IMG/VR virus record: IMGVR_UViG_3300025030_000068
Span: 25,929 to 89,928 of that record
Length of the DNA: 64,000 nt
Strand: one strand, 5' to 3'
Origin: a virus
In this document: in pieces, positions 1,943 to 48,976 of the stretch
Layout: the number at the start of each line of letters is the position of its first letter
Position numbering within the stretch: position 1 is the first letter of the stretch
The notes under the pieces: generated by a model
The model's input: the letters and a program-made list of their open reading frames with translations, nothing else
Databases searched by the model: none
What the model was told of the DNA's origin: nothing
Made by a program: the position numbers and the translations under genes

Positions 1943-2611
1943 TTATGTTGTTTTAAGGAGTCGCTCTTCTTTGCTGTGACATTTTGAACACAAGGTTATA
2001 AGGTTCTCCATGCTGTGAGCCTCTTCTGGGGTATCGAATAGCCTGAATGGTTTTTTGTGGTGGACATGCAACCTCTTCCCGGTCTTCCCACACTTGGTGC
2101 ATTTATTCCCGTCTCTTTCCCTTGCTTGCCGGCGGATTCGATCCCACCCGCCGTAATAGGGTTGCGATCCGTCTTTGCATAAATAGCCACCCTTCCATCT
2201 AGGATGATTTTCTTTTGACCAGTTCAAAGATTTCCACGTCCCGAAGCATTTAGTTGAACAAAAGACTGAGTTCCTCGTCTCTATTTGGTCTCTATTTCTG
2301 AAAAACTTTTTGCTGCAAATTATGCATTCCCTTTCTACCGGGCCGCCTTTCCATCTCTTTGTGTTCTCTCCTGTAACTGCCGCTCGCTGTAATTTCATCC
2401 TGCATTCAATAGAACAACAGTCTTTGGTCCTTCCGCTCTTCCGAAGGATGTCGCTTATCGTTTTATAAAAGTATTCACCGCATGCATGGCAGGTTACTTT
2501 CACCGACAATCGTATCCTTCCATTTCTCGCTATTCGGATCGGCTCATTTATTATCCCGATTGTTTTGAGCCTTTCTTTGTATTCTTCTATTCTTCTGTCC
2601 ATCTCCGTCAC
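1943..2611 (-). CDS. HNH homing endonuclease with repeated Cys zinc ribbons
   Basis: C-terminal RDGNKCTKCG...HVHHKKP...NLITLCSKCHSKE; repeated CS..C and HPRWKGG-like motifs; AT-richer than flanks. Confidence 0.85.
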   Translation of the reverse strand: MTEMDRRIEEYKERLKTIGIINEPIRIARNGRIRLSVKVTCHACGEYFYKTISDILRKSGRTKDCCSIECRMKLQRAAVTGENTKRWKGGPVERECIICSKKFFRNRDQIETRNSVFCSTKCFGTWKSLNWSKENHPRWKGGYLCKDGSQPYYGGWDRIRRQARERDGNKCTKCGKTGKRLHVHHKKPFRLFDTPEEAHSMENLITLCSKCHSKEERLLKTT

Positions 2612-3062: not shown

Positions 3063-3218
3063 TCACTTGCTTTTGTCGCTGGGCTCGATTTCTTTGCAGC
3101 TGAACCACTCCGCACCGCACTCGGTACAGCGGTACAGCGGGTCTCCGGGGTTGCAGGTGTCGAGCGGATGCTCGTCGGCTACCTTCTTGGCTTTGCCGTC
3201 GCAGACGAAGCATGTCAT
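3063..3218 (-). CDS. small zinc-finger protein
   Basis: CFVC...CTEC; ATG overlaps the thyX stop codon. Confidence 0.5.
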   Translation of the reverse strand: MTCFVCDGKAKKVADEHPLDTCNPGDPLYRCTECGAEWFSCKEIEPSDKSK

Positions 3219-3868
3219 GACTGGCAGCCTCTGGCGCCTTCCGGACAGCTCCCGCGCGTGCAGCCCGGTCCGGCGTCTGCGAATAATGCGGGAGCAATGC
3301 GCCTGCATGCGTTCAGCATCTCCTTCGCCATTTCCCGGATCTCCCATTGGGCACGGCTGCAGCAGCGCAGCGAGAAGAAGTGGCGCAGCTCTCTGGCGTT
3401 CATGGTCATCACCAGTTTCGTCTCGGCGGCGTTCGGGAGGACGAAACGGGCGTCTTCGGCGGGCACTCCGGCGTGGATCAATTCGTCGTAGAAAGCGAAG
3501 GCCTGCAGTTCCATGAATTCACGGTAGGCGGCCTCGTACCCGGCGGCGGAGATGCTTTCCGGGATGATGTAGTTAGCATCCTTCGTCCGGACATACCGTT
3601 GGCTCTGCTGCGAGAATGAAGCGACCCGGTGTCGCACCAGCTGGTGCGAGCAGGCCCGGCTGATTCCATCGACGGCGAAGGTGAAGCTGGCGTGCTCTGC
3701 GACCGACTCGTGTCCCATGCCGAGAACTTTCCGCAGCAGGAGAATGTCGCTGTCGGTTGTCGTGCCGGGGACAATGGCTGCTGGCATCCCGGCGCTGTAG
3801 CATACCCTTGCCGCGTAGGCGCAGACCGCTTCCGGGTCCGGGGTGTGGGTAACTAGTTGGACTTTCAT
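3215..3868 (-). CDS. thyX: FAD-dependent thymidylate synthase
   Basis: GHESVAEH and the RHRVASFSQQSQRY signature (RHRx7S); start MKVQLVTHTPDPE. Confidence 0.95.
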   Translation of the reverse strand: MKVQLVTHTPDPEAVCAYAARVCYSAGMPAAIVPGTTTDSDILLLRKVLGMGHESVAEHASFTFAVDGISRACSHQLVRHRVASFSQQSQRYVRTKDANYIIPESISAAGYEAAYREFMELQAFAFYDELIHAGVPAEDARFVLPNAAETKLVMTMNARELRHFFSLRCCSRAQWEIREMAKEMLNACRRIAPALFADAGPGCTRGSCPEGARGCQS

Positions 3869-4062
3869 GGGCTCTCCTCGAATAGTGTCATCTGCCCCTC
3901 GCAGGTCCGGGCCTTGCGTTTGCGGTCCGCTCTGGCTGCTCCGAGTATCTTGCGCAGACAGGTCTTGCCGATGCCGATATGGATCGACTCCGGGTCTGTC
4001 AGTTTTCGGTTGCAGCGTCGACAGCGAGTGCTTTCGGCTTTTGCTTTTCCCATGATGTCCAT
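3865..4062 (-). CDS. DUF6011-like zinc-binding protein
   Basis: CRRCNRKLTDPESIHIGIGKTC motif. Confidence 0.7.
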   Translation of the reverse strand: MDIMGKAKAESTRCRRCNRKLTDPESIHIGIGKTCLRKILGAARADRKRKARTCEGQMTLFEESP

Positions 4063-4472
4063 CCGTTATCCGTTCTCTTCTCGACCATCTGCCAGTATAG
4101 GAGCGCTCCGGTTTCGCGGATGTTCTCACCTTGGTATTTCTTCGTCGGGCTGGGGTCGTGGACGACGACGCCATTCATGTCCATCACCACCGCGTGGGTT
4201 TTGCCTTCAAAGTTCTTACTTGGAACCGCAGCGTCGAAGTATCCCTCGATGCTGTCTTCGAAGAGTAATTCCCGCTTCCCCGGATATCCCGACCCGCAGC
4301 ACTCGTAACCCATCGACCAGAAGAAGCACGTCCAGACGTTTTGCCATATCCATTCTGGCAGCAGGATGAAGTGCGGGACCGCTTCCAGTTCCAGATCGAA
4401 CAGGCTGGCGACGACGGCTCGCATGCAGTCTCCTCGGCCTTGGTCGTGAATTGATTGTTCGACTTTGGTCAT
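3999..4472 (-). CDS. phage hypothetical protein, possible Cys-peptidase-like fold
   Basis: Q...GDCMRA...HAVV...HDP pattern. Confidence 0.5.
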   Translation of the reverse strand: MTKVEQSIHDQGRGDCMRAVVASLFDLELEAVPHFILLPEWIWQNVWTCFFWSMGYECCGSGYPGKRELLFEDSIEGYFDAAVPSKNFEGKTHAVVMDMNGVVVHDPSPTKKYQGENIRETGALLYWQMVEKRTDNGWTSWEKQKPKALAVDAATEN

Positions 4473-7401: not shown

Positions 7402-7430
7402 ATAGTAACTGCTCCCGTTCCCTATGTCAA
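7402..7430 (-). promoter_or_regulatory. sigma70 promoter for the leftward operon, overlapped by the operator-like motif
   Basis: Minus strand TTGACA-17 bp-TACTAT. Confidence 0.75.
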
Positions 7431-7438
7431 AGGTTTTT

Positions 7439-8623
7439 ATGGCGAAAATTTACGCGCACAAACAGCACGGGTGGCAGTTGCGTTTCACCATCTATTTTGC
7501 TGAACAAAAGGTCGTCCGCTACCGCTTCAGCCGGTCTCGCGACGAGATGTATTCCATGCACCGGGCAGCGGAAATGCTGGAACTCGCCAGCCGTCGCTGT
7601 GACGCCTCTTTCCGTGAGGTGGAGGTCGCCGTCAACCTCGGTCTGATCTCCAGTTCCGAGGCGGTCCTGCTGACTGGCGGAAAACGATCGTCGTCCTATG
7701 ATCTTGATCTGGTCATGGAGCGCTGGTCGGTCTCCTCCTCGTTGCTCAACTCCCCCTACGGTCATGGAGTCAACCTGCGGCGTGGTGTCCGTCTGCGCCT
7801 CTGGCTGGAAGCGAACCCGATCCCGACGCTCGACGACGCTGCCGTGAAGAGATATATCCAGAGGCGCCGAGACGGGCTGCTGACCTATCCCCATCCCCGG
7901 ACCGGGATCACCGTCGTCGGCTGTTCGACCAAGACCATCACCAATGAGCTGCAGGTGCTACGGGCGATCATTGACGAGGCCGTGAAGCTCAAGATGGTCG
8001 ACATGAACGTGGCTCGGTCTGTCGATCTCCCGGTGAAGAAGTCAAAGTTTCGACGGTCCATGTCGATGGATGAGGTTTCGGCGCTCCTTGAAGCCGCCCA
8101 GCAGTCTCGGCACCTCTGTCATGGGTATGCGGTCGAGGTCTTGTCCTGTGCTGTCTATGCTGGCCTGCGGCGCTCGGAGATTCGGACCCTGCAGTGGCGC
8201 GACATCGACTTCGACAATGGTCGTATCCGGATCGTGCAGAAGGCGGTACCGGGCGAGGATGATTTTATCCCCAAGGGTGGCAATGCCGGCGTGACGACGC
8301 TGCCGGATCGCCTTGCCGAGATTCTTGAGCAGGTAGAGCGCAAGGGGGAGTGGGTCTTCGGTGGAGAGAAGCCGCTGGTTCTTACCGCGTTTTGGCAACT
8401 TTTCAAGGAGGTGGCGTCCCGTGCCGGGCTCCCCTCGGATTTGTCGCTCCATCACGCTCGCCATACCTACGGGTCGTGGCTGCTCCGCATGACCGGCGAT
8501 CTGTCGTATGTTCAGTCCGAAATGCGGCATACCGATATCAACACGACGCGGAACTACATGCATACGACCGCCTCGGAAAAACCGGCCCGGCTGCTCGACT
8601 TCGGCATCAAAAAAAAGGATTAA
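7439..8623 (+). CDS. int: tyrosine integrase
   Basis: AGLRRSE (R), PKGG (K), HHARH (HxxR), RHTDINTTRNY (H, Y); attP immediately downstream. Confidence 0.95.
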   Translation: MAKIYAHKQHGWQLRFTIYFAEQKVVRYRFSRSRDEMYSMHRAAEMLELASRRCDASFREVEVAVNLGLISSSEAVLLTGGKRSSSYDLDLVMERWSVSSSLLNSPYGHGVNLRRGVRLRLWLEANPIPTLDDAAVKRYIQRRRDGLLTYPHPRTGITVVGCSTKTITNELQVLRAIIDEAVKLKMVDMNVARSVDLPVKKSKFRRSMSMDEVSALLEAAQQSRHLCHGYAVEVLSCAVYAGLRRSEIRTLQWRDIDFDNGRIRIVQKAVPGEDDFIPKGGNAGVTTLPDRLAEILEQVERKGEWVFGGEKPLVLTAFWQLFKEVASRAGLPSDLSLHHARHTYGSWLLRMTGDLSYVQSEMRHTDINTTRNYMHTTASEKPARLLDFGIKKKD

Positions 8624-40143: not shown

Positions 40144-40869
40144 CTATTTGCTCAGCTTGACGGTCGCGGAGACCATCGCGTGTGGCTGCTTCGTGTAGGG
40201 GCAGAGGCAGTCTCCTTGAACGCCGCCCTTGACGCCTCCGCCAGCGGCGCCGTCGAGATCGATGCCGGCGCTGGTCCATGCGGTCTTGCCAGCGATCGTT
40301 ACCGTGCATTTCCCGGCGCTGGCGGTGATCGTGAGGTCGCCGCTGGTGATGGTGATGTCCTCGTTGCCCTCGATGATCGTCGTGCGCTTGCCGGCGACGG
40401 TAGTGTGCTCGTCGACCGCGACCACTGTCGTCCGGTTGCCGTCCTTGTCGATCTCCTCGCTGGTGCCGCTGCGCTTGCGGTAGCTGCGGGTGCGTTTGGC
40501 GGCGGGGGTGTAGATGGCGCTGTCCGCCGGGCCGAGGTAGCCGACGACCACCGGGTCGTTGCGGTCCTTGTTGAAGAAATCAATCGCGACAATGTCCCCT
40601 TCTTCCGGAGTCCACTCTTCGCCGTTGTCCTTGTTGATCTTCCCGTACAGCAGCGGCACGCCCATGAGGTATTCGTGCAGCTTGCCGACGTTCCGTCCGA
40701 ACAGGCCGATATCGACTTGCGTCCGCCGCCAGCCGCCCGCGTCCGCATGTTTGATGCCGTCCTTGAGCACGACTCCCCGGACGAGGCTGTCCGCCGAGAA
40801 ATTAACGGCTTTGACCGCCTTGTTTTGTTCCATCCCCGATTGCCGCCGGGCACCGTTGCGTTCAAGCAT
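40144..40869 (-). CDS. baseplate central spike (gpV/gp5-like)
   Basis: P..GD.V...F...PVVVG OB-fold, beta-helix repeats, C-terminal CPYTKQPH. Confidence 0.8.
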   Translation of the reverse strand: MLERNGARRQSGMEQNKAVKAVNFSADSLVRGVVLKDGIKHADAGGWRRTQVDIGLFGRNVGKLHEYLMGVPLLYGKINKDNGEEWTPEEGDIVAIDFFNKDRNDPVVVGYLGPADSAIYTPAAKRTRSYRKRSGTSEEIDKDGNRTTVVAVDEHTTVAGKRTTIIEGNEDITITSGDLTITASAGKCTVTIAGKTAWTSAGIDLDGAAGGGVKGGVQGDCLCPYTKQPHAMVSATVKLSK

Positions 40870-40956
40870 GTTTCTGTCCCTTTTATGTTTGACTTTACCG
40901 TTTGGTATATTATAGTGTTCCCTATGTCGCATATCTTACCCGCTGGCGGGGAGTGG

Positions 40957-40972
40957 TGGCAAAGTTTTTGCT
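40957..40972 (+). promoter_or_regulatory. sigma54-like -24/-12 element (paralogue at 46938-46953)
   Basis: TGGCAAAGTTTTTGCT fits GG-N10-GC. Confidence 0.5.
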
Positions 40973-41136
40973 GTATCGTGGGTGTTCCCTATATCGCTAA
41001 GACGTGATTTCGTTCTTTTTTTGTTGCAATCGTTTATGAGCCTGCGGTAACGTGCCTTCAACCTGCTCAACACAGGGACTGGACCGGCTACCGCACCCGT
41101 CAGTATTGCGGTATTTTTACGCCCTGCATTTAGAAA

Positions 41137-41210
41137 GGATGCCGGGAAGGACAGGGAATATCCAATACCTGTCGCAGCCGTCCATTGCTGTGTTGAACTT
41201 CCCGGCATCC
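41137..41210 (+). ncRNA. C4/CI-like antisense RNA, copy 1
   Basis: 13-bp closing stem 41137-41149/41198-41210 enclosing two hairpins; upstream complementary target; precedes an antirepressor. Confidence 0.7.
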
Positions 41211-41246
41211 TCTGCCGCATCCCTCAACAGGAAATGGAGCTTCACC

Positions 41247-41438
41247 ATGAAAAACATCAAGACCACCTGCCCCATCCCCTACCCGTCCGATCCAATCTTC
41301 AACGCCACCCTTCACGCCGGTTTTGCCAAAGAGCGCGGCGGCCAGATTTCGCCGGCCAATGTTCTGTGCCTGGCGGAGTATGCCGAGCAGTCGATTCGCC
41401 TCTTGCAGTCGCTGTTGGCTGGAAAGGCGGTGTGCTGA
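41247..41438 (+). CDS. small ORF upstream of the antirepressor (icd position)
   Basis: Paralogue of 47292-47537 (YP.DP.FN..L.AGFAKERGGQI); TGATG coupling. Confidence 0.7.
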   Translation: MKNIKTTCPIPYPSDPIFNATLHAGFAKERGGQISPANVLCLAEYAEQSIRLLQSLLAGKAVC

Positions 41439-42166
41439 TGAATCAGTTAATCGCAATCGCCAACCGTCCCATCGGCACCGACTCCATTCCGACCGTCAAT
41501 GCCCGCGACCTTCACGCCTTCCTCGCTGTCGGAAAGGACTTCTCGACATGGATCAAGGACCGCATTGACCAGTTCGGATTCGTTGAAAATCAGGACTTCG
41601 TGCGCTCCCCGATTCCGGGGAACGGCAAACATGCGGGTTTACGGGCGCCCATCGAATACCACCTCTCCATTGATATGGCGAAAGAGCTGTCGATGGTCGA
41701 ACGCTCTCCGCAGGGGAAGAAGGCGCGTCTCTACTTCATCGAGTGTGAGCGCCTCGCCAAGACGCCCCTCATCGAAACGCCAGAAATGCAGATGGCGCGT
41801 GGCCTCCTTGCCGCTGCCGCCATGATCGACGACAAGAACCGGCAGATTGCCGTACTGGAACCGAAGGCCGCCGCTCTCGACCGGATCGCGACCGCTGACG
41901 GCTCCCTGTGTATCACCAATGCCGCCAAGGATTTGCAGGTGCGCCCCAAGGATCTCTTCGCCTTCCTCTCTGGTCACAAGTGGATTTATCGCCGGGCCGG
42001 TGGCGGTGGCTTCGTCGCGTATCAGGATAAATTACAGTCCGGCCTACTGGAGCACAAGGTGACGCTCGTTTCACGCTCCGATGGCAGCGAGAAGCTCACC
42101 GAGCAGGTCTTGGTGACGGCCAAAGGCATGGCGCGGCTGGCGGAAGCCTTGGCGGTCACGGCGTAG
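41438..42166 (+). CDS. antirepressor (AntA/AntB N-terminus, KilA-C/ANT C-terminus)
   Basis: VNARDLHAFL.V.KDFSTWIK.RI; MAKELSMVER; LEPKA...ITNAAK...QVLVTAKG. Confidence 0.9.
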   Translation: MNQLIAIANRPIGTDSIPTVNARDLHAFLAVGKDFSTWIKDRIDQFGFVENQDFVRSPIPGNGKHAGLRAPIEYHLSIDMAKELSMVERSPQGKKARLYFIECERLAKTPLIETPEMQMARGLLAAAAMIDDKNRQIAVLEPKAAALDRIATADGSLCITNAAKDLQVRPKDLFAFLSGHKWIYRRAGGGGFVAYQDKLQSGLLEHKVTLVSRSDGSEKLTEQVLVTAKGMARLAEALAVTA

Positions 42167-42221
42167 TGTTATGGACTGGCCAATTCCGGCCAGAATTTGC
42201 AATTTTCTTAAGGGGATCTAC

Positions 42222-42377
42222 ATGAACGAAAAAGCACAGAAGATGATGGAAGTTCAGGCGCTGGTCGATGCAATCCGTTGCGGCACTGCCAATGACGAAC
42301 TGTCGATGGCCGTCAACACGATAAATGTCCTTGCCGGTATGGTGGTCGAAAGGATAGAGTGGTTGCTGGAAGGTTAG
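42222..42377 (+). CDS. small hypothetical protein
   Basis: Paralogue of 48337-48492 (T.NVLA.M..ER). Confidence 0.6.
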   Translation: MNEKAQKMMEVQALVDAIRCGTANDELSMAVNTINVLAGMVVERIEWLLEG

Positions 42378-42381
42378 AGGG

Positions 42382-42421
42382 ATAAAATTCGCCCGGTCAG
42401 TGATGGCCGGGCGAATTTTAT
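42382..42421. terminator. bidirectional terminator
   Basis: ATAAAATTCGCCCGGTCA-GTGA-TGGCCGGGCGAATTTTAT. Confidence 0.85.
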
Positions 42422-43725
42422 GTGTGTTTCTGCCCTCGCGTCAGGCCGAGGCAGGACTGATAAGTCGTCCCGGCCATGCCGATCTGGTAGTTATGGGTCA
42501 CCTGCTCCACGAAATATTCCAGCCCGTTCTTCATGAGGGCACCGTCGCCCACCTTGAACTCTGGGGCGCCGTGGATGCCGAGCGTGCCGCTTTCGAGGAG
42601 GTGGTTGCGTTTGACGCGAGTCCAGAGCATCGACGCTTTGTTCTTGATCGGCTCCAGTGCGAGGTCTTGCATCCAGACGTCGAGAGCCGGGACGTTTGGT
42701 GGCGCGAAGTTGGTATTGACCTCCCACGGGGAGAATCCGTGTGTGGCAATTTCGTCCTGCGTGTCGTTGAAGACGCCTTGCGCGAACTGGATGGGGATGC
42801 CTTCCAGCGCAGCGGCCATGACGAACTGCGGCGCCTTGAGGTAAACGTAGTTGATGCGTTCGTTGTCGCAGATGCCGAGGTCTTCGGTGACCACCAGCCG
42901 GTCGTCGATCGTGCGGAGGACGCCCCTGATCCCGGTCGCTCCCGGTGCTGCTCCGGTCTCGGTGCAGAGGAGTTTGCCGGTCGTCGGGTCGAACGGGTAC
43001 TTCTCGTGGATGACGTAGAACTTGCCGTCGTAGGTCTCGGTGGAGAGGACATTGAACGGTTCGTTGGCGGTGGCCTTCATCGCGTTCCAGATGCTGCCGG
43101 TAGATTCGAGGAGCGCCCAATTGTAGGTCTGCCAGTCGTCCGGAGTGACGTCCGGGAACCAGATGTCCATGTAATCTTGCGGCAGCAGCAGCTGGTTGAA
43201 GAAGAGCTTATAAAAGAGACTGTCAAGGATCTCCTTCGGTGTACCGGAGAACGTCACGCCGGCAGCCAAGCGAAACAGGTACTCGGAGTTGTCGCCGCCG
43301 GTCACGGTGCCGGTCTCGGTGTTCTTCAGCGGCATGATATCGACGATGCAGTCGTGTTTCATGAGCAGCTTGCCGAAGTCGGTGCCGTTGATGCGGCAGC
43401 GGAACTGCGGGCGGCCCTCGGCGTCATAGCAGCGGACCCGGCCTACGCGGTCGATGAGGCCGATCATGACCGACTGCATCCCCTTGCCGTCTCCGGCGTC
43501 GAGGCTGATCAGGATGATGTCGTCGGTCTTGACTATTTCATCATATCGTTTACTATCGATTCGCGTATTGAACGTGGTCGTGATCTGGAATCCGCCAGCA
43601 GCACGGGCAAACGCCTTGTTCGTGTTGATCGACACGATGTCATTGCTGATATCTTCGTCTGCGTAGCCGTTGGCGGCCCGGCGGAGAATGACTTTGTGGT
43701 CTGGTCGGAATGTCCCGTAAAACAT
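42418..43725 (-). CDS. baseplate hub protein
   Basis: Position after the tape measure; SGTL.I.G.P.FKVG...YFVEQVTH...LTRG C-terminus. Confidence 0.7.
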   Translation of the reverse strand: MFYGTFRPDHKVILRRAANGYADEDISNDIVSINTNKAFARAAGGFQITTTFNTRIDSKRYDEIVKTDDIILISLDAGDGKGMQSVMIGLIDRVGRVRCYDAEGRPQFRCRINGTDFGKLLMKHDCIVDIMPLKNTETGTVTGGDNSEYLFRLAAGVTFSGTPKEILDSLFYKLFFNQLLLPQDYMDIWFPDVTPDDWQTYNWALLESTGSIWNAMKATANEPFNVLSTETYDGKFYVIHEKYPFDPTTGKLLCTETGAAPGATGIRGVLRTIDDRLVVTEDLGICDNERINYVYLKAPQFVMAAALEGIPIQFAQGVFNDTQDEIATHGFSPWEVNTNFAPPNVPALDVWMQDLALEPIKNKASMLWTRVKRNHLLESGTLGIHGAPEFKVGDGALMKNGLEYFVEQVTHNYQIGMAGTTYQSCLGLTRGQKHT

Positions 43726-43746
43726 TGAGGCTCCGTGGAGGTTGTT

Positions 43747-44136
43747 ATGCGTTTATTGTGTGTTCTTTGTGCGTTTCTTCTGACTGTTGCTATTGCTTGT
43801 GCCGGCGAGCCGGGGAAATACATTTATCAGGGGGGGACGACAGATTCTGGCCCTGTTGCGGTTCGGACTTCGAGCCAAGAATTTGAGTATTTTTGGTACA
43901 TGAGTGGTGGTCGCTATGTCGCGGCGGCTTTTCATTCCCCCAACCATCTTGCAATCCTCCTGTCTGACTCCTCCGGAGAATCCGGCGATACTGAATTTTA
44001 TTTTGACGGGAAGACCAAGGAGGTGACTTTCCTCGATCCGGCGAACGGCGAGAGGGTTGTCTATCTTTCTCCCGGCTCCTCTGGTTATGAAATGGCGACA
44101 TCCATTTGGCGACACGCTGGTTTCCTGAGTAACTAG
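43747..44136 (+). CDS. secreted hypothetical protein (moron)
   Basis: Signal peptide MRLLCVLCAFLLTVAIACA; GGAGG RBS; antisense to the tail operon. Confidence 0.7.
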   Translation: MRLLCVLCAFLLTVAIACAGEPGKYIYQGGTTDSGPVAVRTSSQEFEYFWYMSGGRYVAAAFHSPNHLAILLSDSSGESGDTEFYFDGKTKEVTFLDPANGERVVYLSPGSSGYEMATSIWRHAGFLSN

Positions 44137-46157
44137 ACCTGCGAAGAGAGGGTGCGGACTTCACCGACAAGTCTCGTTATCTCTTCTGTCAATCTGTCAA
44201 TACTGCTTAATGGTTTTCCGAGCTGCATGTGACCATTCTTATCTGGGATAAATTCGCCCGTCTCTTCATCGTGCAGGATCTCCCTCTTCTTCTGTTTCTC
44301 CATTTCATGCGTAGCACTATGAACCTTCCGGTACCCAGAATTTCTGATGGATGGAGGGTCAGGGTCGTTTGGTCCCAATCCCCAGCCGAGGAGCTTTTTC
44401 GTGGTGCTATTGACGGCCTTGGTGACTGGCGATTCCTTTTTATCTGAGTACATTCCAGCCGGATCGCCAAGCATGAGGTTTGTCAGTTTCCCGACCGCCT
44501 TGGTGAACTCACCGGAGTTGATCGTGTTGGCGACATCAACAAGGCCAGCTTTGATCTTGTCGGTTACAGACAGCAAGGAATCACCGAGGCCGACCATGTA
44601 GTTCTCAATATCAGCCTGCACTCGCGTGTGCTCGTCGGTTCCCCTCCCCGCGTCCCCTGCGAGCGACCCGGCGGCGCGGGCCTTGGTGAATATCTCCCGG
44701 AACTTTTCGGGATCATTCAATGCCTCGTTCGATAGCGCTCCGTTGTCCTTCAGCGTCTTCAGCAGACTCTCGGTCTCCGCCACGGTCATCGTGAACTGCG
44801 ACGCCAGCGTGAATTTGGTAAGCGGTCCGTCCGCGCCGCCGCCGAAGGACATCGCCTTATTCATCATGCCCCGTACGTTCTCGCTGTCGCCGACGCCGAG
44901 AGACATGCGCTTCTTGAATTCCCAGAGGGCGCCGAGGTCGCCAGCCGGCAGCTTGTCGCCGCCGAGGGCCGACCACTTGAACAGCTGCTCCCCTGGTGAT
45001 CCGCCGTTGCCGGAGATCGACGAGTTCATCTTGGAAAGGATGTTGGCATTCTGCCCGGACGGGCCGTTGCTCCACAGGGACGCTTGCAGGCCGGCGACGA
45101 ATGAGGCCGACTCGCTGCCGATCTTGGCGCCTCCGGACGTGGCCGAGATTGTCTGCATCAAGCGCTGATTAACCTGAACGTACTCTTCGATCCTTGTGCC
45201 GATATTGTGCCGGCCCAGCTTGCCGAAGTCCCGCATCGCCTCGATATATTGCCGGGTCTGTTCCTGCGTCATGCCGGTGAGGGCGCCCGTTGATCCGACC
45301 ATGTTGGCGGCAGCGGACCCGTCCATGTTGAAGGCTCTGGCTGACTGCATGGCGAGGAGCGTTCCCCTTGCGCCGTAGTTCCCCTTTTTGGCGACCGCTT
45401 GCGCCATCTGCAGCTCGGCTGCCGGCCCAAATCCCAGATTGAGGCCGGCACCGAATCCGGTTTGTCCGCCGATCCCCGCGAGGCCGGTCCGGCCCTGTGA
45501 TATGGCTCCGGCGCGTGACATCGACTCCAGCATGAAGCCCATGACCGTGCCGGCGCCAATGAGAGCCGCTCCGTAGCCGATGGCTTTCTTCAGGCCTCCA
45601 CCAGAGGCCGGTGCTCCGCGTTGCTGCCCAGAGCCCTGCACGCTGTCCGTGTATTCGTTGAACTCGCCTTGAAACTGGTCCTCTTGCCCTTCCAGCCGAC
45701 GGTAGCTTTTCTGTTGCTGCCTTAACCGGCTCCTGAGCTGAGTTCTCTGTTCGGCAATTCTGGAGCGTTCCGATGCCGAATTGCTGTTCGACTCTTGCTG
45801 GTCGAGAGTTTTCAGCTCCCCCTTCATTTTGGTGATTTCTTGTCGGGCCTTGCTGATCTGCGCGGCGAAGTCCTGCATATTCTTGCCGAGCTTGGACGAA
45901 ATACTGGCGGCCTCCTGAAACTGTTTTGCGTTCAGGAGGCCGCCCTGTTTGTCGCTGGACGAGGCAATGCCCTTGAGCCGATTGATATCGTCGGTCAATC
46001 TCTTGATGAGAACGGAGGTTTCCTTGAGGCCGGTCTTCCCCGCCAGCTCAATGGGATCGCCAAGGTGTTGCAGCGCGTCCTTGGTCTTGTCGATGGATGC
46101 CTTGGCCGCAGCAACCTGTCGCGCGTCAACATTTATCCCGATGCCAATTCCGCCCAT
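44133..46157 (-). CDS. tail tape measure protein
   Basis: 674 aa, Ala/Gly-rich helical, follows the tail chaperones. Confidence 0.75.
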   Translation of the reverse strand: MGGIGIGINVDARQVAAAKASIDKTKDALQHLGDPIELAGKTGLKETSVLIKRLTDDINRLKGIASSSDKQGGLLNAKQFQEAASISSKLGKNMQDFAAQISKARQEITKMKGELKTLDQQESNSNSASERSRIAEQRTQLRSRLRQQQKSYRRLEGQEDQFQGEFNEYTDSVQGSGQQRGAPASGGGLKKAIGYGAALIGAGTVMGFMLESMSRAGAISQGRTGLAGIGGQTGFGAGLNLGFGPAAELQMAQAVAKKGNYGARGTLLAMQSARAFNMDGSAAANMVGSTGALTGMTQEQTRQYIEAMRDFGKLGRHNIGTRIEEYVQVNQRLMQTISATSGGAKIGSESASFVAGLQASLWSNGPSGQNANILSKMNSSISGNGGSPGEQLFKWSALGGDKLPAGDLGALWEFKKRMSLGVGDSENVRGMMNKAMSFGGGADGPLTKFTLASQFTMTVAETESLLKTLKDNGALSNEALNDPEKFREIFTKARAAGSLAGDAGRGTDEHTRVQADIENYMVGLGDSLLSVTDKIKAGLVDVANTINSGEFTKAVGKLTNLMLGDPAGMYSDKKESPVTKAVNSTTKKLLGWGLGPNDPDPPSIRNSGYRKVHSATHEMEKQKKREILHDEETGEFIPDKNGHMQLGKPLSSIDRLTEEITRLVGEVRTLSSQV

Positions 46158-46160
46158 GCG

Positions 46161-46527
46161 CTATTCTCCGTAGCCGGGGAGCATCCCGACCGTTTCGTGT
46201 TCGTGGCGCTTCCTGAAGATCGCGGTCAGATCGAGGTCTTCTCCGGCCTCCATCCGTTCCATGATCTCGTCCGCCAGCTGGTCCCCGGTGATCGTCATGC
46301 CGCATTCCGGGCACTGCGGGCGGTGGGTATCGATCTCGCATTTCGGGCAGGTCTTCAGCTTCTCTCCCTGCTCGATCATCTCCATCTCGTATTCCAGCAT
46401 GATCTCCTCGTCGGTCATGGCGAGGAAGCGCGGATCTGTCGGCGGCAGGTTATACTTGCGGCGAAACCATGCTCGCAGACCCCGGTGCAACTCCTGTGCT
46501 GTCGCCGCTAACTGGCGCGGGTCGAAA
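46161..46527 (-). CDS. tail assembly chaperone GT extension, reached by a putative +1 frameshift
   Basis: WFRRKYNLPPTDPRFLAMTDEEI motif; lies in the +1 frame of 46450-46869. Confidence 0.65.
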
Positions 46528-46869
46528 GGTATCGAGGAAGGTCTGGACCTCTTGCCAGACAGCCAGCACGGCGTTTTCATCGGTTTCGTCGAACAGATTG
46601 GCGAGGTCGAACCATGCCGGGACTTTGCCGTCGGTGACGTGGGTGACGAAGACGACGATATACGAGAGCAGGCGCAGCCCTTCGCCGATCTGGTCCGCAT
46701 CGACGCGACCAAAGGCATTGTTCTGGGCGGCGTCCTTGAGGGCGATGGTCCGCTTGTCGCCGATGCTGGGGCGGCGGATCACGAAGGTGCCGGCGTACTT
46801 GCTGCCGAATGGTAGCTGCGTGTGGCTGTTGATCTTTGTCTCGATGCTGAACGACGTGGCGTTGCTCAT
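46450..46869 (-). CDS. tail assembly chaperone (G-like)
   Basis: Between tube and tape measure; GTF.IRRPS...P.WF...FR; AGGAGG RBS. Confidence 0.75.
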   Translation of the reverse strand: MSNATSFSIETKINSHTQLPFGSKYAGTFVIRRPSIGDKRTIALKDAAQNNAFGRVDADQIGEGLRLLSYIVVFVTHVTDGKVPAWFDLANLFDETDENAVLAVWQEVQTFLDTFRPAPVSGDSTGVAPGSASMVSPQV

Positions 46870-47183
46870 TGAATCCTCCTGAGTGGTTTCGTGTGGTCGT
46901 TACCTATGTCAAATATTCTAGCGGTTGCGGGGCGCAGGGGCAAAGTTTTTGCTGTTGCCGGGTCACTCTTGGATAAACTCTACCAAACGGCATATTTCTA
47001 GTTGCGTTTAGTTTCTTCGTCCTGTAGGCTGTTCCCTATATCGCAATATCGTTGCGGTGTCGTTTTTGAGTTGCAACCAATCGGGAGTGCTGGTACGGTT
47101 TCTTTACCTGCTGAACACAGGGACACAACCCGGCCCGCACTCGTTAGCTTTGCGGTATTTTTATGTCCGGCGCTTTGAAAGGC

Positions 47184-47257
47184 GTGCCGGGATGGGCGAG
47201 GAATATATTGAATACTCGCCGCAGCTTGGTTGTTCGCTGTGTTCAACATCCCGGCAC
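47184..47257 (+). ncRNA. C4/CI-like antisense RNA, copy 2
   Basis: Closing stem 47184-47194/47247-47257 with two hairpins; covaries with copy 1. Confidence 0.7.
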
Positions 47258-47291
47258 TCTTGCCGAACCCCTTGAACAGGAGAACAACACC

Positions 47292-47537
47292 ATGAACACC
47301 TCAATGCACGTCCGTCCTGCGCCCCTGCCCTGTCACAAGTCAACCTCCCCGGCCATCTACAACTACCCGACTGATCCGCTCTTCAACGTCTCCCTCTATG
47401 CTGGCTTTGCCAAAGAGCGTGGTGGCCAGATTGCCGCTGGCAACGTCTTGGAGCTTGCCAAGTATGCCGAGGCCGCTGTTCGTCTTCTTCAGGCCGAAAT
47501 CGCGCAGCTGCGGTTGGCCGGAAAGGCGGTGTGCTGA
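47292..47537 (+). CDS. small ORF upstream of the antirepressor (icd position)
   Basis: Paralogue of 41247-41438; AGGAG RBS. Confidence 0.7.
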   Translation: MNTSMHVRPAPLPCHKSTSPAIYNYPTDPLFNVSLYAGFAKERGGQIAAGNVLELAKYAEAAVRLLQAEIAQLRLAGKAVC

Positions 47538-48340
47538 TGAACGCGACTACTCTTGACACCTCCTCCCTCGTGTTCCTTTCCGATGGCGAACCCCGGACCA
47601 CCTCCCTCGCGATTGCCGAGGGTATGGAACTTCAGCACAAAAACGTCATCGAGCTTATCCGCACCTATCTTGCTGATTTGGCGGAGTTTGGCCCTCTCGC
47701 GTTTGAAACGCGGAAGGGGCAAGCGCTCCCTCATGGTGGTTTTGCCAAGGGGACTGAATATGCCGTCCTCAACCAAGAGCAGTCAACGCTGATCATGACC
47801 TACATGAAAAACACCGAGATTGCCCGCTCCTTCAAGAAGCGGCTGGTCAAGGCATTTTTCGCTCTGGCGCGTCAGGTGACCGGATCGTTCCTGTCGGTCT
47901 CCTCCCTGCAAAACTTCCGGGCACCGGTCGAGGCGACCATCGTCTTCGACGCCTTCCACAGCCTGGCGCTCAAAGTCGGCTTGGAAGGGAATCAGGCGGT
48001 CCTCTCTGCCAACATGGCGACCCGTGCCGCGACCGGGATCGATCCGTTGCAGCTTCTCGGCGCGACGCATCTGCAAGCCGGGAATCAGAACCGGCACTAC
48101 ACGCCGACCGAGCTTGGCACTCGCTTCAACATGACCGGGCGCGAGTTCAATATTGCCCTTGAGGCTGCTGGGCTGCAAACCCGTCACGGCAAGCAGTGGA
48201 TGCCGACGGTGAAGGGCCGGGCCTATGCCGTCCTCCTCGACACGCAGAAACGCAAGGGAACCGGGACGCCGATCCAGCAACTCAAATGGACCGCTGATAT
48301 CGTCGACGTCCTGCCGTCGCTGAAAGGTGGTGCCCAATGA
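47537..48340 (+). CDS. Rha-family regulator/antirepressor
   Basis: TTSLAIAE...HKNVIELIR...LNQEQ...FKKRLVKAF; C-terminal TPTELG...FN..L...GLQ. Confidence 0.85.
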   Translation: MNATTLDTSSLVFLSDGEPRTTSLAIAEGMELQHKNVIELIRTYLADLAEFGPLAFETRKGQALPHGGFAKGTEYAVLNQEQSTLIMTYMKNTEIARSFKKRLVKAFFALARQVTGSFLSVSSLQNFRAPVEATIVFDAFHSLALKVGLEGNQAVLSANMATRAATGIDPLQLLGATHLQAGNQNRHYTPTELGTRFNMTGREFNIALEAAGLQTRHGKQWMPTVKGRAYAVLLDTQKRKGTGTPIQQLKWTADIVDVLPSLKGGAQ

Positions 48341-48492
48341 TCCCCGCCAAAAAGCTGATCGAGGCGATGGCGCTGGCTGAGGCGATAAAGGTGCTGACAG
48401 AACACGATGCGTATCACGCTCCGGCGCATACGTTGAATGTTCTGGCGGCGATGGCTATCGAACGAATGACGGCGGTCCTGGAAACTGAGTGA
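48337..48492 (+). CDS. small hypothetical protein
   Basis: ATGA coupling; paralogue of 42222-42377. Confidence 0.6.
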   Translation: MIPAKKLIEAMALAEAIKVLTEHDAYHAPAHTLNVLAAMAIERMTAVLETE

Positions 48493-48494
48493 CA

Positions 48495-48533
48495 ATAAAA
48501 ACCCCCGGTCAGTGATGGCCGGGGGTTTTTTAT
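48495..48533. terminator. bidirectional terminator
   Basis: ATAAAAACCCCCGGTCA-GTGA-TGGCCGGGGGTTTTTTAT; same core as 42382. Confidence 0.85.
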
Positions 48534-48571
48534 CGTTCAAGGTCCGAACATTTGACTGTGAGGTCCGAACA

Positions 48572-48976
48572 TTACACCATTTTCTTGCGGGCCTTGATCG
48601 AGTAATTTTCGCCGGAGATTACGTGCTTGCCGTAGCTGCGGCTGTGGGTTGCAAACTTGCAGCCGGTGTACTGCTCAATCGTCTGGAAGGTGACGTTGTC
48701 CTGAATTTCGATCTCGAATTCCGGCGCAGTCAGCCAGTCGCCAGACTCCGGCACGAAGCCGAGCTGCTTCAGGCTTTTGCCGCTGACCATGTAGCGGCTG
48801 CCGGAAATGTTGTGGGTGAATTTGCCGGGGACGAACTCTTGCGTCTCTGGGGAGCCGAGCGCGTCGACATCCTGCAATCCGAAGTCGTCGCTGACCTCGA
48901 CGTTCTGAGCAAGGCCGATCACTTCTCCGCCGATCTTGAAGAGTGCCCGGTTGCCCGTCATGGTATTGAGTCCCAT
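48572..48976 (-). CDS. tail tube protein
   Basis: 134 aa after the sheath; TGNR...IGLAQ...FG...LGS...E.V. Confidence 0.85.
   Translation of the reverse strand: MGLNTMTGNRALFKIGGEVIGLAQNVEVSDDFGLQDVDALGSPETQEFVPGKFTHNISGSRYMVSGKSLKQLGFVPESGDWLTAPEFEIEIQDNVTFQTIEQYTGCKFATHSRSYGKHVISGENYSIKARKKMV

What the first reader, a model, noticed from the sequence alone, without database searches (positions are those of the whole stretch)
46897..48533. Paralogous cassette 2: same chassis, compensatory RNA changes, different antirepressor
Seen: same architecture and terminator core (CCGGTCAGTGATGGCCGG) as cassette 1 but with a Rha-type gene. Stems covary (ATGCCGGGAAG/CTTCCCGGCAT vs GTGCCGGGATG/CATCCCGGCAC; GACAGG/CCTGTC vs GGCGAG/CTCGCC). 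The RNA-target pair also covaries (TCAACACAG/CTGTGTTGA vs TGAACACAG/CTGTGTTCA). Inference: two orthogonal RNA-gated circuits with exchangeable payloads, possibly aimed at different repressors including those of co-resident prophages.
Basis: partly seen in the sequence, partly recalled or inferred. Interest (0 to 1): 0.7.

Follow-up and report, generated by a model that had tools for sequence, protein, structure and literature searches.

The report
Second c4-type RNA-controlled antirepressor cassette
A roughly 90-kb temperate phage from groundwater carries two diverged copies of the phage P1-style switch, in which a small antisense RNA blocks synthesis of an antirepressor; each copy has its own matching RNA/target sequences and a different antirepressor gene, so this is a known kind of switch present twice with separate predicted specificities.

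Summary
Window 46897-48533 is a paralogue of 40915-42421. Both have the same order: leader RNA, small ORF1, antirepressor, small ORF3, and a terminator with an identical 18-nt core. The payloads are unrelated: Rha-type here, AntA+KilAC in cassette 1.

The layout matches P1 immI (c4-icd-ant) part for part. A promoter is followed by upstream decoy sites a1/b1 and a leaky terminator. Next comes a 72-76-nt three-helix RNA, then sites a2/b2 bracketing the Shine-Dalgarno of ORF1. ORF1's stop overlaps the antirepressor start (TGATG).

The RNA fold is backed by covariation in six homologues: 8 pairs changed on both sides, and 0 of 500 shuffles reached this. It differs completely between the cassettes and is compensated at both b1 and b2. 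He also missed the downstream a2 site.

Relatives in other viral contigs put the same RNA chassis in front of AntA/KilAC, ORF6N, P22_AR_N or Bro-N genes, so payloads do exchange.

Orthogonality is predicted from duplex energies but not shown. The target repressors are unknown.

Verdict: a divergent member or variant of the c4 / sRNA-Xcc1 / IsrK kind, below Rfam thresholds, present as two predicted-insulated channels in one phage. The scan had already noted cassette 1 of this genome as C4-like.

The parts
46897..46912 (+). Copy 1 of the genome-wide asymmetric operator-like motif (GTTACCTATGTC, one mismatch); left boundary of homology with cassette 1
   Evidence: Motif TTCCCTATRTC occurs 18 times in the genome against 2.1 expected. 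It aligns with 40915-40930 of cassette 1.
46915..46955 (.). Conserved 17-mer GGCAAAGTTTTTGCTGT (46939-46955), overlapping a minus-strand sigma70-like promoter (TTGCCC-17-TAGAAT, 46943->46915) that points at the downstream tail genes
   Evidence: The 17-mer is identical in both cassettes and occurs nowhere else without mismatches. Promoter scan. Function is inferred only.
47029..47044 (+). Copy 2 of the operator-like motif (GTGTTCCCTATATCGC), about 27 nt upstream of the -35 hexamer
   Evidence: Exact match. Same position as 40982-40997 in cassette 1.
47071..47099 (+). Putative weak sigma70 promoter TTGCAA-17-TACGGT; the predicted start is near 47106
   Evidence: Read from the sequence. A -35-like TTGACA/TTGCAA lies at the same distance from a1 in cassette 1, L006, L017 and L022. 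It falls below the consensus scan's cut-off, so it is inferred.
47112..47130 (+). Upstream decoy sites: a1 (TGAACACAG, 47112-47120) and b1 (ACACAACC, 47123-47130), complementary to the RNA's a' and b'
   Evidence: Nine-nt perfect complement plus extended pairing. The cognate duplex is -31.8 kcal/mol, against -18.0 with the cassette-1 RNA. P1 has a1/b1 in the same place.
47135..47162 (+). Leader intrinsic terminator: stem CCGCA/TGCGG followed by a T-run. It would end a short IsrK-like 5' RNA of about 57 nt.
   Evidence: Read from the sequence. Conserved in all homologues. Nearly the same hairpin and tail lie between a1b1 and c4 in P1, where the Rfam isrK model covers a1b1 plus the terminator.
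47183..47258 (+). c4/sRNA-Xcc1-like antisense RNA: an 11-bp outer stem enclosing hairpin P2 (GGCGAG/CTCGCC) and hairpin P3. b' is the P3 loop GUUGUUC; a' is the P3 3' arm plus junction, CUGUGUUCA.
   Evidence: RF02221 gives a full-length hit of 31.7 bits, below the gathering score of 53. MFE fold. Covariation. Own model R1 scores 91.4 bits.
47272..47288 (+). Functional target: a2 (TTGAACA, 47272-47278) and b2 (GAACAAC, 47282-47288), bracketing the Shine-Dalgarno AGGAG (47278-47282) of ORF1
   Evidence: Two 7-nt perfect complements to a' and b'. The cognate duplex is -17.2 kcal/mol, against -7.3 with the cassette-1 RNA.
47292..47537 (+). ORF1, an 81-aa leader protein in the position of P1 icd; its stop overlaps the Rha start (TGATG)
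   Evidence: 61% identical to cassette-1 ORF1. dN/dS is 0.27. Only 2 representatives among 1.84 billion proteins. No Pfam or PHROG family. No similarity to P1 Icd.
47537..48340 (+). Rha-type regulator/antirepressor, 267 aa (the payload)
   Evidence: PF09669 Phage_pRha, 3.5e-15. phrog_518 Rha-like regulator 2.4e-22 and phrog_63 Ant 7.7e-12.
48337..48492 (+). ORF3, a 51-aa protein of unknown function; its start overlaps the Rha stop (ATGA)
   Evidence: 40% identical to cassette-1 ORF3. pN 0.40 against pS 0.79. No family match.
48499..48533 (.). Bidirectional intrinsic terminator: A-run, stem with the shared core CCGGTCAGTGATGGCCGG, T-run. Right boundary of the cassette.
   Evidence: The cassette-1 copy is reported by the terminator scan.
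40915..42421 (+). Paralogous cassette 1, used for comparison: a1 41067-41075, leader terminator 41090-41118, RNA 41138-41209, a2 41224-41229, b2 41233-41238, ORF1 41247-41438, AntA+KilAC ant 41438-42166, ORF3 42222-42377, terminator 42382-42421

Best explanation
Cassette 2 is a self-contained operon of the phage P1 immI type (c4-icd-ant), and cassette 1 is its diverged paralogue.

Proposed mechanism. A weak promoter, preceded by two copies of the phage's dispersed operator-like motif, starts transcription just upstream of site a1. Most transcripts probably stop at the leader terminator and give a short RNA of about 57 nt that carries a1/b1. Read-through transcripts contain the 76-nt three-helix RNA, then a2/b2, ORF1, the Rha-type antirepressor and ORF3.

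The three-helix RNA pairs through its P3 loop (b') and its 3' junction (a') with b2 and a2, which bracket the ORF1 Shine-Dalgarno. It may act in cis or, after processing, in trans. This pairing blocks ORF1 translation. The ORF1 stop overlaps the Rha start, so Rha synthesis is blocked too, through translational coupling and probably transcriptional polarity.

The upstream a1/b1 copy is a stronger complement (about -31 kcal/mol). It competes for the RNA and can release the block.

The two cassettes differ by one base in a' and completely in b', with matching changes in both target copies. Each RNA is therefore predicted to control only its own antirepressor.

Shown here: the anatomy, the fold covariation, the three-way complementarity and the identity of the payloads. 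Inferred: the transcripts, processing, the direction of regulation, orthogonality in vivo, and the targets of the antirepressors.
For: The layout is identical to the annotated P1 immI: operator, promoters, a1, b1, c4, a2, b2, icd overlapping ant1. P1 also has a near-identical terminator hairpin between a1b1 and c4.

Both RNAs give full-length alignments to RF02221 sRNA-Xcc1, an outer stem enclosing two hairpins. Relatives found by pattern scan pass that family's threshold (L016 64.6 bits, L017b 59.1 bits), and my model R1 links them to ours.

Fold covariation in six homologues: 98.5% of cells paired, 8 pairs with changes on both sides, 0 of 500 shuffles as high, and slid controls at 1-2.

The same search that recovers P1's annotated a1/b1/a2/b2 finds both target copies for both RNA segments in 11 further elements, which have about 9 different specificities. 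Examples of b'/b2: UCCAUU/AAUGGA in cassette 1, GUUGUUC/GAACAAC in cassette 2, CAUUGUC/GACAAUG in L017a, UCCAAGU/ACUUGGA in L021.

a2 and b2 flank or overlap the Shine-Dalgarno in every case.

Cognate duplexes are stronger than cross duplexes. For a1b1: -31.1 and -31.8 against -18.0 and -22.1. For a2b2: -16.5 and -17.2 against -7.3 and -13.2 kcal/mol.

ORF1 is under purifying selection (dN/dS 0.27), and its stop overlaps the payload start, as icd does with ant1.

Payloads are antirepressor-type in all but one of the relatives examined; the L016 payload had no Pfam match.
Against: Neither the Rfam C4 model (RF01695) nor the c4-a1b1 or isrK models hit the window, even at E<=10. The sRNA-Xcc1 scores (29.5 and 31.7 bits) are below the gathering score of 53.

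My model does not detect P1 c4. Kinship with P1 therefore rests on architecture and on intermediates, not on direct similarity.

ORF1 is not homologous to Icd.

The a2/b2 duplex energies taken alone are not unusual against shuffled leaders: 61-229 of 1000 shuffles do as well. The support comes from position and covariation across homologues.

The a' segments differ by only one base, and the cassette-2 RNA retains -13.2 kcal/mol on the cassette-1 leader, so some cross-talk cannot be excluded.

There is no transcript evidence of any kind.
Confidence: 0.8

Rival explanations
1. This is a purely intramolecular leader switch of the IsrK kind. The read-through mRNA folds into alternative structures (a1b1:a'b' against a'b':a2b2). 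The only trans-acting species is the short terminated 5' RNA, which activates translation of its own long mRNA. On this reading the paralogue-specific covariation reflects folding constraints, not two immunity specificities.
For: All three partners lie on one transcript. The MFE and centroid folds of both leaders contain the long-range a1b1:a'b' helix. A conserved intrinsic terminator follows a1/b1 in every homologue. In Gifsy-1, short IsrK activates translation of the read-through isrK-orf45-anrP mRNA, and orf45 is translationally coupled to anrP (PMC4825925). The Rfam isrK model covers a1b1 plus the terminator in P1.
Against: The isrK model does not hit our leaders. In P1 the same architecture yields a processed, trans-acting repressor RNA (annotation; Weinberg et al. 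supplement). A cis-only switch and a trans-acting RNA are not mutually exclusive.
Confidence: 0.25
2. The two copies are a duplication, or a double acquisition, without functional insulation. The two RNAs cross-regulate both leaders, and the sequence differences are drift that is tolerated because pairing is short.
For: a' differs by a single base. The cassette-2 RNA is predicted to bind the cassette-1 leader at -13.2 kcal/mol, and the cross a1b1 duplexes are still -18 to -22 kcal/mol.
Against: b' is completely different (UCCAUU against GUUGUUC) and is compensated independently at b1 and b2 in both cassettes. Every other homologue also keeps all three copies matched despite different sequences. 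The copies are old (dS about 0.9), so uncompensated drift would have destroyed pairing. From my own knowledge of Citron & Schuster 1990, P1 and P7 are heteroimmune at immI through only a few compensated bases.
Confidence: 0.1
3. There is no regulatory RNA. The conserved intergenic segment holds only protein-binding sites, or a terminator plus a leader peptide, and the hairpins are incidental.
For: There are no RNA data, and the Rfam scores are below threshold.
Against: Five of the six P2 pairs change on both sides while staying paired, which DNA-binding sites would not require. The complementarity is three-way across elements with unrelated sequences.
Confidence: 0.03

Closest known systems
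Phage P1/P7 immI operon (c4 antisense RNA - icd - ant1/2), Rfam C4 RF01695 plus c4-a1b1 RF03163
   Same: The order of parts is the same: repressor operator, promoter, a1/b1, terminator-like hairpin, three-helix RNA, a2/b2 at the ribosome-binding site, a small ORF overlapping the antirepressor start, antirepressor. As in P1, a' is the 3' junction and b' is the P3 loop. Specificity is changed by compensated substitutions, as between P1 and P7.
   Different: The C4 and c4-a1b1 models give no detectable match. P2 is a simple hairpin with an AAUAU...AAUAC loop rather than a tetraloop-capped helix. a1 and b1 are nearly contiguous and form about 20 bp with the RNA. ORF1 is unrelated to Icd. The payloads are AntA/KilAC or Rha, not P1 Ant1/2. 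An extra ORF3 and a bidirectional terminator are present. There are two copies per genome, placed antisense inside the tail-gene module rather than next to a lytic replicon.
sRNA-Xcc1 family (RF02221; Xanthomonas/Xylella and APSE phages)
   Same: This is the best Rfam match. It is a full-length alignment with the same three helices. Canonical members found here (L016, L017b) have the same a1b1/terminator/a2b2 surroundings and antirepressor-type payloads. Multiple copies per genome are reported in Xylella (PMC12189769), and one lies upstream of an ORF6N gene in APSE (PMC7313666).
   Different: Our scores (29.5 and 31.7 bits) are far below the gathering score of 53. In the literature sRNA-Xcc1 is treated as an integron-borne, virulence-linked trans sRNA, not as an immI-type regulator.
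Gifsy-1 IsrK - orf45 - anrP (Salmonella), Rfam isrK RF01394
   Same: A 5' target-bearing RNA ends at a leaky intrinsic terminator. The read-through mRNA has a small ORF translationally coupled to the regulator gene, and a processed RNA lies downstream of IsrK (PMC4825925).
   Different: There the short RNA activates translation, and the payload is an antiterminator-pathway regulator. The isrK model does not match our leaders.
P4 CI RNA with seqA/seqC
   Same: A processed RNA is complementary to one site upstream and one downstream on its own transcript (as summarised in PMC4825925).
   Different: It acts by transcription termination of replication genes, with no antirepressor payload. It was not compared by sequence here.
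P22 immI (sar RNA / ant)
   Same: An antisense RNA limits antirepressor synthesis, and the immI region sits among late genes (from my own knowledge, not tested here).
   Different: sar is a true cis-antisense transcript from the opposite strand. It has no three-helix RNA and no duplicated target sites.

Membership tests
P1-type immI (c4-icd-ant) regulatory system | RNA of about 75-90 nt with an outer stem enclosing two hairpins | tested here: met
   MFE folds. Covariation in six homologues: 22 pairs, 98.5% paired, 8 changed on both sides, 0/500 shuffles as high. Same bracket pattern as the C4 consensus on P1.
P1-type immI (c4-icd-ant) regulatory system | Two RNA segments (a', b') complementary to two sites (a2, b2) at the ribosome-binding site of the first downstream ORF | tested here: met
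   Cassette 2: TTGAACA and GAACAAC flank AGGAG. Cassette 1: TCAACA and AATGGA overlap GGAG. P1 served as positive control in the same script.
P1-type immI (c4-icd-ant) regulatory system | A second copy of the target sites (a1, b1) upstream of the RNA on the same strand | tested here: met
   47112-47130 and 41067-41085. Cognate duplexes are about -31 kcal/mol.
P1-type immI (c4-icd-ant) regulatory system | A small leader ORF whose end overlaps the antirepressor start (icd/ant1) | tested here: met
   TGATG overlaps at 47535-47539 and 41436-41440. ORF1 is under purifying selection. The protein itself is not an Icd homologue.
P1-type immI (c4-icd-ant) regulatory system | The downstream gene encodes an antirepressor | tested here: met
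   PF09669 Rha for cassette 2; PF08346 plus PF03374 for cassette 1; PHROG 'anti-repressor Ant'. Antirepressor activity itself was not tested.
P1-type immI (c4-icd-ant) regulatory system | An operator of the primary repressor at the operon promoter | tested here: inconclusive
   Two copies of a dispersed asymmetric motif (18 genome copies against 2.1 expected) lie upstream of each cassette promoter. The binding protein is unknown, and the motif could be a promoter element.
P1-type immI (c4-icd-ant) regulatory system | The RNA is processed from the operon transcript and represses in trans, conferring immunity specificity | not testable with these tools
   No RNA data are available, so this needs experiments.
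Rfam C4 antisense RNA (RF01695) | Covariance-model score at or above the gathering score of 45 bits | tested here: not met
   No hit at E<=10 over 40800-48600. The P1 control scores 68.8 bits.
Rfam sRNA-Xcc1 (RF02221) | Covariance-model score at or above the gathering score of 53 bits | tested here: not met
   31.7 bits (47186-47263) and 29.5 bits (41141-41214), both full-length alignments. Relatives L016 (64.6) and L017b (59.1) pass and are also hit by my model R1.
Rfam isrK (RF01394) / c4-a1b1 (RF03163) for the upstream element | Covariance-model match to the 5' target-site element | tested here: not met
   No hit at E<=10. Only the layout and the terminator hairpin resemble P1.
Phage_pRha (PF09669) | Pfam score above the gathering score of 29.9 bits | tested here: met
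   56.8 bits, residues 21-110.

The most novel reading that the evidence does not exclude
One temperate phage runs two mutually insulated c4-type RNA channels. Each is a portable, self-terminated moron with its own operator and promoter, and each gates a different class of antirepressor (AntA/KilAC and Rha). This would let the phage release two anti-immunity functions independently, for example one against its own repressor and one against repressors of co-resident or superinfecting phages. The chassis would be a natural plug-and-play scaffold whose specificity loop (b') and payload recombine separately.
Probability: 0.3. Interest if true: 0.6.

Novelty: new variant of a known kind. Interest (0 to 1): 0.45.

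Why it matters
Control of antirepressors by c4-type antisense RNA has been known since P1/P7, so the principle is not new. This locus adds three things.

First, it is a natural pair of diverged RNA/target sets inside one genome, with three-way compensation at a'/b', a1/b1 and a2/b2. That makes it a ready-made test case for how few bases insulate two antisense channels.

Second, it gives comparative evidence that the RNA chassis, its specificity loop and the antirepressor payload assort independently among phages.

Third, it defines a divergent RNA subgroup that the Rfam models miss, so such switches are probably under-annotated in metagenomic phages.

If the two antirepressors have different targets, the locus would bear on prophage cross-talk in polylysogens.

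Tried and rejected
- Rfam at gathering thresholds on the whole window gave nothing.
- blastn of the leader against 50,697 phage records gave no match.
- A protein-pattern scan with ORF1 returned only spurious low-complexity loci, L003 and L004.
- The pattern CCTGCTNAACACAGGGAC gave no viral hit.
- Several pattern hits were chance matches or tRNAs: L005, L007-L011, L015, L018, L019.
- Genome-contig scans: the subtype-specific pattern gave 0 hits. The general pattern gave 120 hits, but none of the first 80 loci is a true homologue by model R1. No host could be assigned.
- The metagenome scan added only L022 and L023; L023 is the same sequence as L017.
- Sequencing runs: no RNA holder is listed. 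The DNA holders are groundwater metagenomes that may be the source sample.
- Laying contigs from four runs gave only fragmentary relatives.
- A profile search with ORF1 found only 2 representatives. ORF1 against P1 Icd showed no similarity.
- Alignment of ORF3 with small ORFs from other cassettes was too weak to call.
- Pfam on 20 early-region proteins found an integrase, ThyX, SSB, DnaB and others, but no recognisable repressor.
- Complex prediction, structure prediction and the protein atlas were not used, because no binding claim is made.
Full report
**Setting.** The window is bases 25929-89928 of an 89.9-kb IMG/VR virus record that CheckV rates complete. The DNA is held by groundwater metagenomes. 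The phage encodes a tyrosine integrase, ThyX, SSB and DnaB. It has a myovirus structural module on the minus strand, with major head protein, protease, tail sheath, tube, baseplate and fibres.

Two plus-strand cassettes interrupt the tail genes. Cassette 2, the finding, lies between the tail tube gene (48572-48976) and the next minus-strand gene (46450-46869). Cassette 1 lies between a tail protein gene (42418-43725) and a baseplate-hub-like gene (40144-40932).

**Observation.** The two cassettes share a left arm made of the intergenic leader plus ORF1. It has 77% column identity, and BLAST within the genome gives E 2.8e-22. They also share a right arm made of ORF3 plus the terminator.
- The ORF1 proteins are 61% identical and the ORF3 proteins 40%.
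- The genes between the arms are unrelated: AntA+KilAC in cassette 1 and Phage_pRha in cassette 2.
- Left-arm homology runs through the shared stretch ending in TGATGAA, that is, exactly to the payload start codon.
- The 18-nt terminator core is found only at these two places.

**What it is.** I fetched the annotated P1 immI region. Its order is: C1 operator, two promoters, a1, b1, c4 RNA, a2, b2 next to the icd Shine-Dalgarno, icd overlapping ant1, ant. Rfam on P1 shows C4 (68.8 bits) and c4-a1b1. The isrK model covers a1b1 plus a terminator hairpin (ACCGCAG...TTGCGGTATTTTT) that lies between a1b1 and c4.

Our cassettes have the same order. They even carry an almost identical leader terminator (ACCGCA...TTGCGGTATTTTT in cassette 1, CCGCA...TTGCGGTATTTTT in cassette 2).

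Rfam gives no hit above threshold. At relaxed thresholds both RNAs align end to end with sRNA-Xcc1 (RF02221) at 31.7 and 29.5 bits, against a gathering score of 53. The C4, c4-a1b1 and isrK models do not match. The sRNA-Xcc1 consensus has the c4 architecture, an outer stem enclosing two hairpins. C4, isrK and sRNA-Xcc1 annotations also alternate within the same Xylella loci (PMC12189769).

**Homologues.** Pattern scans of viral and metagenomic contigs found two groups.
- Four independent close relatives of our subtype: L006, L017a (identical to L023), L022 and L021.
- Five canonical relatives: L012, L013, L014, L016 and L017b (sequences).

L016 and L017b pass the sRNA-Xcc1 threshold. My covariance model R1, built from the six subtype sequences, also hits them at 25.6 and 41.5 bits. 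R1 finds exactly two copies in the phage genome and does not detect P1 c4.

**Fold.** On the six-sequence alignment the 22 proposed pairs are 98.5% paired.
- Eight pairs change on both sides, five of them among the six pairs of hairpin P2.
- None of 500 shuffles reaches the observed values.
- Sliding the partners by 1-3 columns drops pairing to 29-52% and leaves 1-2 covarying pairs.

**Targets.** A script that lists contiguous complementarity between the 3' half of each RNA and its flanks recovers P1's annotated sites: TTGACAG for a1 and a2, GTTAGTG for b1 and b2. In P1, a' is the junction 3' of P3 and b' is the P3 loop.

The same holds in our elements.

| | a' | b' | a1 | b1 | a2 | b2 | Shine-Dalgarno |
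|---|---|---|---|---|---|---|---|
| Cassette 1 | CUGUGUUGA | UCCAUU | TCAACACAG | around TGGAC | TCAACA | AATGGA | GGAG (overlapped by b2) |
| Cassette 2 | CUGUGUUCA | GUUGUUC | TGAACACAG | ACACAACC | TTGAACA | GAACAAC | AGGAG (flanked by a2 and b2) |

L006, L017a, L022, L021, L013, L014, L016 and L017b each have different b' and/or a' sequences and keep both target copies matched; L012 keeps a2/b2, but no a1/b1 copy was found in the sequence available upstream of it. The b' loop, b1, a2 and b2 are additions from this work, and they make the difference between the cassettes much larger than one base.

**Predicted insulation.** RNAduplex energies in kcal/mol:

| Target | Cognate, cassette 1 | Cognate, cassette 2 | Cross pairs |
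|---|---|---|---|
| a1b1 | -31.1 | -31.8 | -18.0, -22.1 |
| a2b2 | -16.5 | -17.2 | -7.3, -13.2 |

One caveat applies. The a2b2 energies alone are not exceptional against shuffled leaders: 61-229 of 1000 shuffles do as well. The argument rests on position and covariation. Some cross-talk by the cassette-2 RNA on leader 1 is not excluded.

**Coding parts.**
- ORF1 has dN/dS 0.27 between the paralogues.
- ORF1 is very rare: 2 clusters by word search and 2 representatives among 1.84 billion proteins by profile search.
- It is unrelated to Icd and to any Pfam or PHROG family.
- Leader ORFs in the relatives are not homologous to it. They again abut or overlap the payload start, or they are absent, as in L006, L014 and L021.
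- ORF3 is conserved between the cassettes only.

**Modularity.** Payloads behind the same chassis are:
- AntA+KilAC in L006;
- ORF6N twice in L017;
- P22_AR_N in L021;
- Bro-N in L013 and L014;
- Bro-N+KilAC in L012.

The cassette-2 leader is closer to L006 (80.9% overall, 86.5% in the RNA core) than to cassette 1 (69.8% and 70.4%). Yet L006 carries an Ant 40% identical to that of cassette 1 and has no ORF1.

A contig from a hydrocarbon metagenome keeps the a1/terminator and ORF1 flanks but replaces 47183-47287, the RNA plus a2/b2, with 99 unlike letters. Another contig shows a variant a1, TCAAAACAG.

L017/L023 carry two tandem cassettes with different a'/b', placed between Mu-like transposase A and B genes. 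Two channels in one phage is therefore not unique to this genome, and the chassis is not tied to tail operons.

**Control region.** Each cassette is preceded by two copies of GTGTTCCCTATRTC. This asymmetric motif has 18 copies in the genome against 2.1 expected, and earlier scan notes had already listed it. The arrangement resembles P1's scattered C1 operators, including Oc4 in front of c4, but the binding protein is unknown. The sigma70-like hexamers TTGCAA-17/18-TA(A/C)(C/G)GT are weak and are inferred from conserved position only.

**Mechanism and rivals.** The best reading is P1-like: the RNA occludes the ORF1 ribosome-binding site, ORF1 is coupled to the antirepressor, and a1/b1 acts as a competitor.

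The main rival is the IsrK logic. There the short terminated 5' RNA activates its own read-through mRNA (PMC4825925). The anatomy is compatible with both, and the two may coexist.

Whether the two antirepressors aim at different repressors cannot be addressed here. Trans-acting antirepressors that work across prophages are documented in Salmonella (PMC3121763, listed; not read here).

**Verdict.** The system belongs to a known kind (c4 / sRNA-Xcc1 / IsrK-type antirepressor control). It is a divergent RNA subgroup, present as two predicted-insulated channels with different payloads.

Noticed in passing
whole genome; in the window e.g. 6510(-), 7418, 9838, 11613(-), 34024(-), 37979, 40918, 40985, 46900, 47032, 58731: The asymmetric motif (GTG)TTCCCTATRTC(AA) occurs 18 times against 2.1 expected in shuffles, mostly at gene boundaries. 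It is often followed by TTTTTGC. It looks like a P1 C1-type or 'stoperator'-type dispersed operator, or a phage-specific promoter element.
   Followed up: partly
genome positions about 3290, 6835, 11620, 35778 (window 9850) and 84700 (window 58770): A second repeated element, AAACCACCAGTTA..GGGTTTCTTTTC, follows several copies of the operator-like motif. It could be a hairpin or a promoter-like unit. Earlier scan notes also saw it.
   Followed up: no
window 40933-40962(-) and 46915-46943(-); terminators 42382-42421 and 48499-48533: Each cassette ends in a bidirectional terminator. At its other end each carries a minus-strand sigma70-like promoter next to operator copy 1. The cassettes therefore seem to cut the minus-strand tail operon into segments and perhaps restart it.
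   Followed up: partly
window 41234-42166: In cassette 1 the ant reading frame stays open upstream to an ATG at 41234, giving 310 aa and overlapping ORF1 in another frame. Cassette 2 has no such extension. This ATG lies inside the b2/Shine-Dalgarno region.
   Followed up: no
L017:3355-3425(-): A type II hammerhead ribozyme (59.3 bits, gathering score 37) lies immediately downstream of the ORF6N payload of the L017a cassette, in a Mu-like phage contig.
   Followed up: no
L017:3424-5400(-) (= L023): Two tandem c4-like cassettes with different a'/b' lie between Mu-like transposase A (phrog_310) and B (phrog_296) genes. Each has a Cys-rich leader ORF of about 70 aa and an ORF6N protein.
   Followed up: partly
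window 47183-47287, in run X5 (hydrocarbon metagenome): A short contig keeps the flanks (47072-47182 and 47288-47405) but has 99 unlike letters in place of the RNA plus a2/b2. This suggests the specificity module is swapped as a block.
   Followed up: partly
window 3215-4174(-), 1943-2611(-), 7424-8623(+): ThyX thymidylate synthase, an HNH endonuclease and a tyrosine integrase lie in the early/accessory region, so the phage is temperate. No Pfam-recognisable repressor was found among 20 early proteins.
   Followed up: partly
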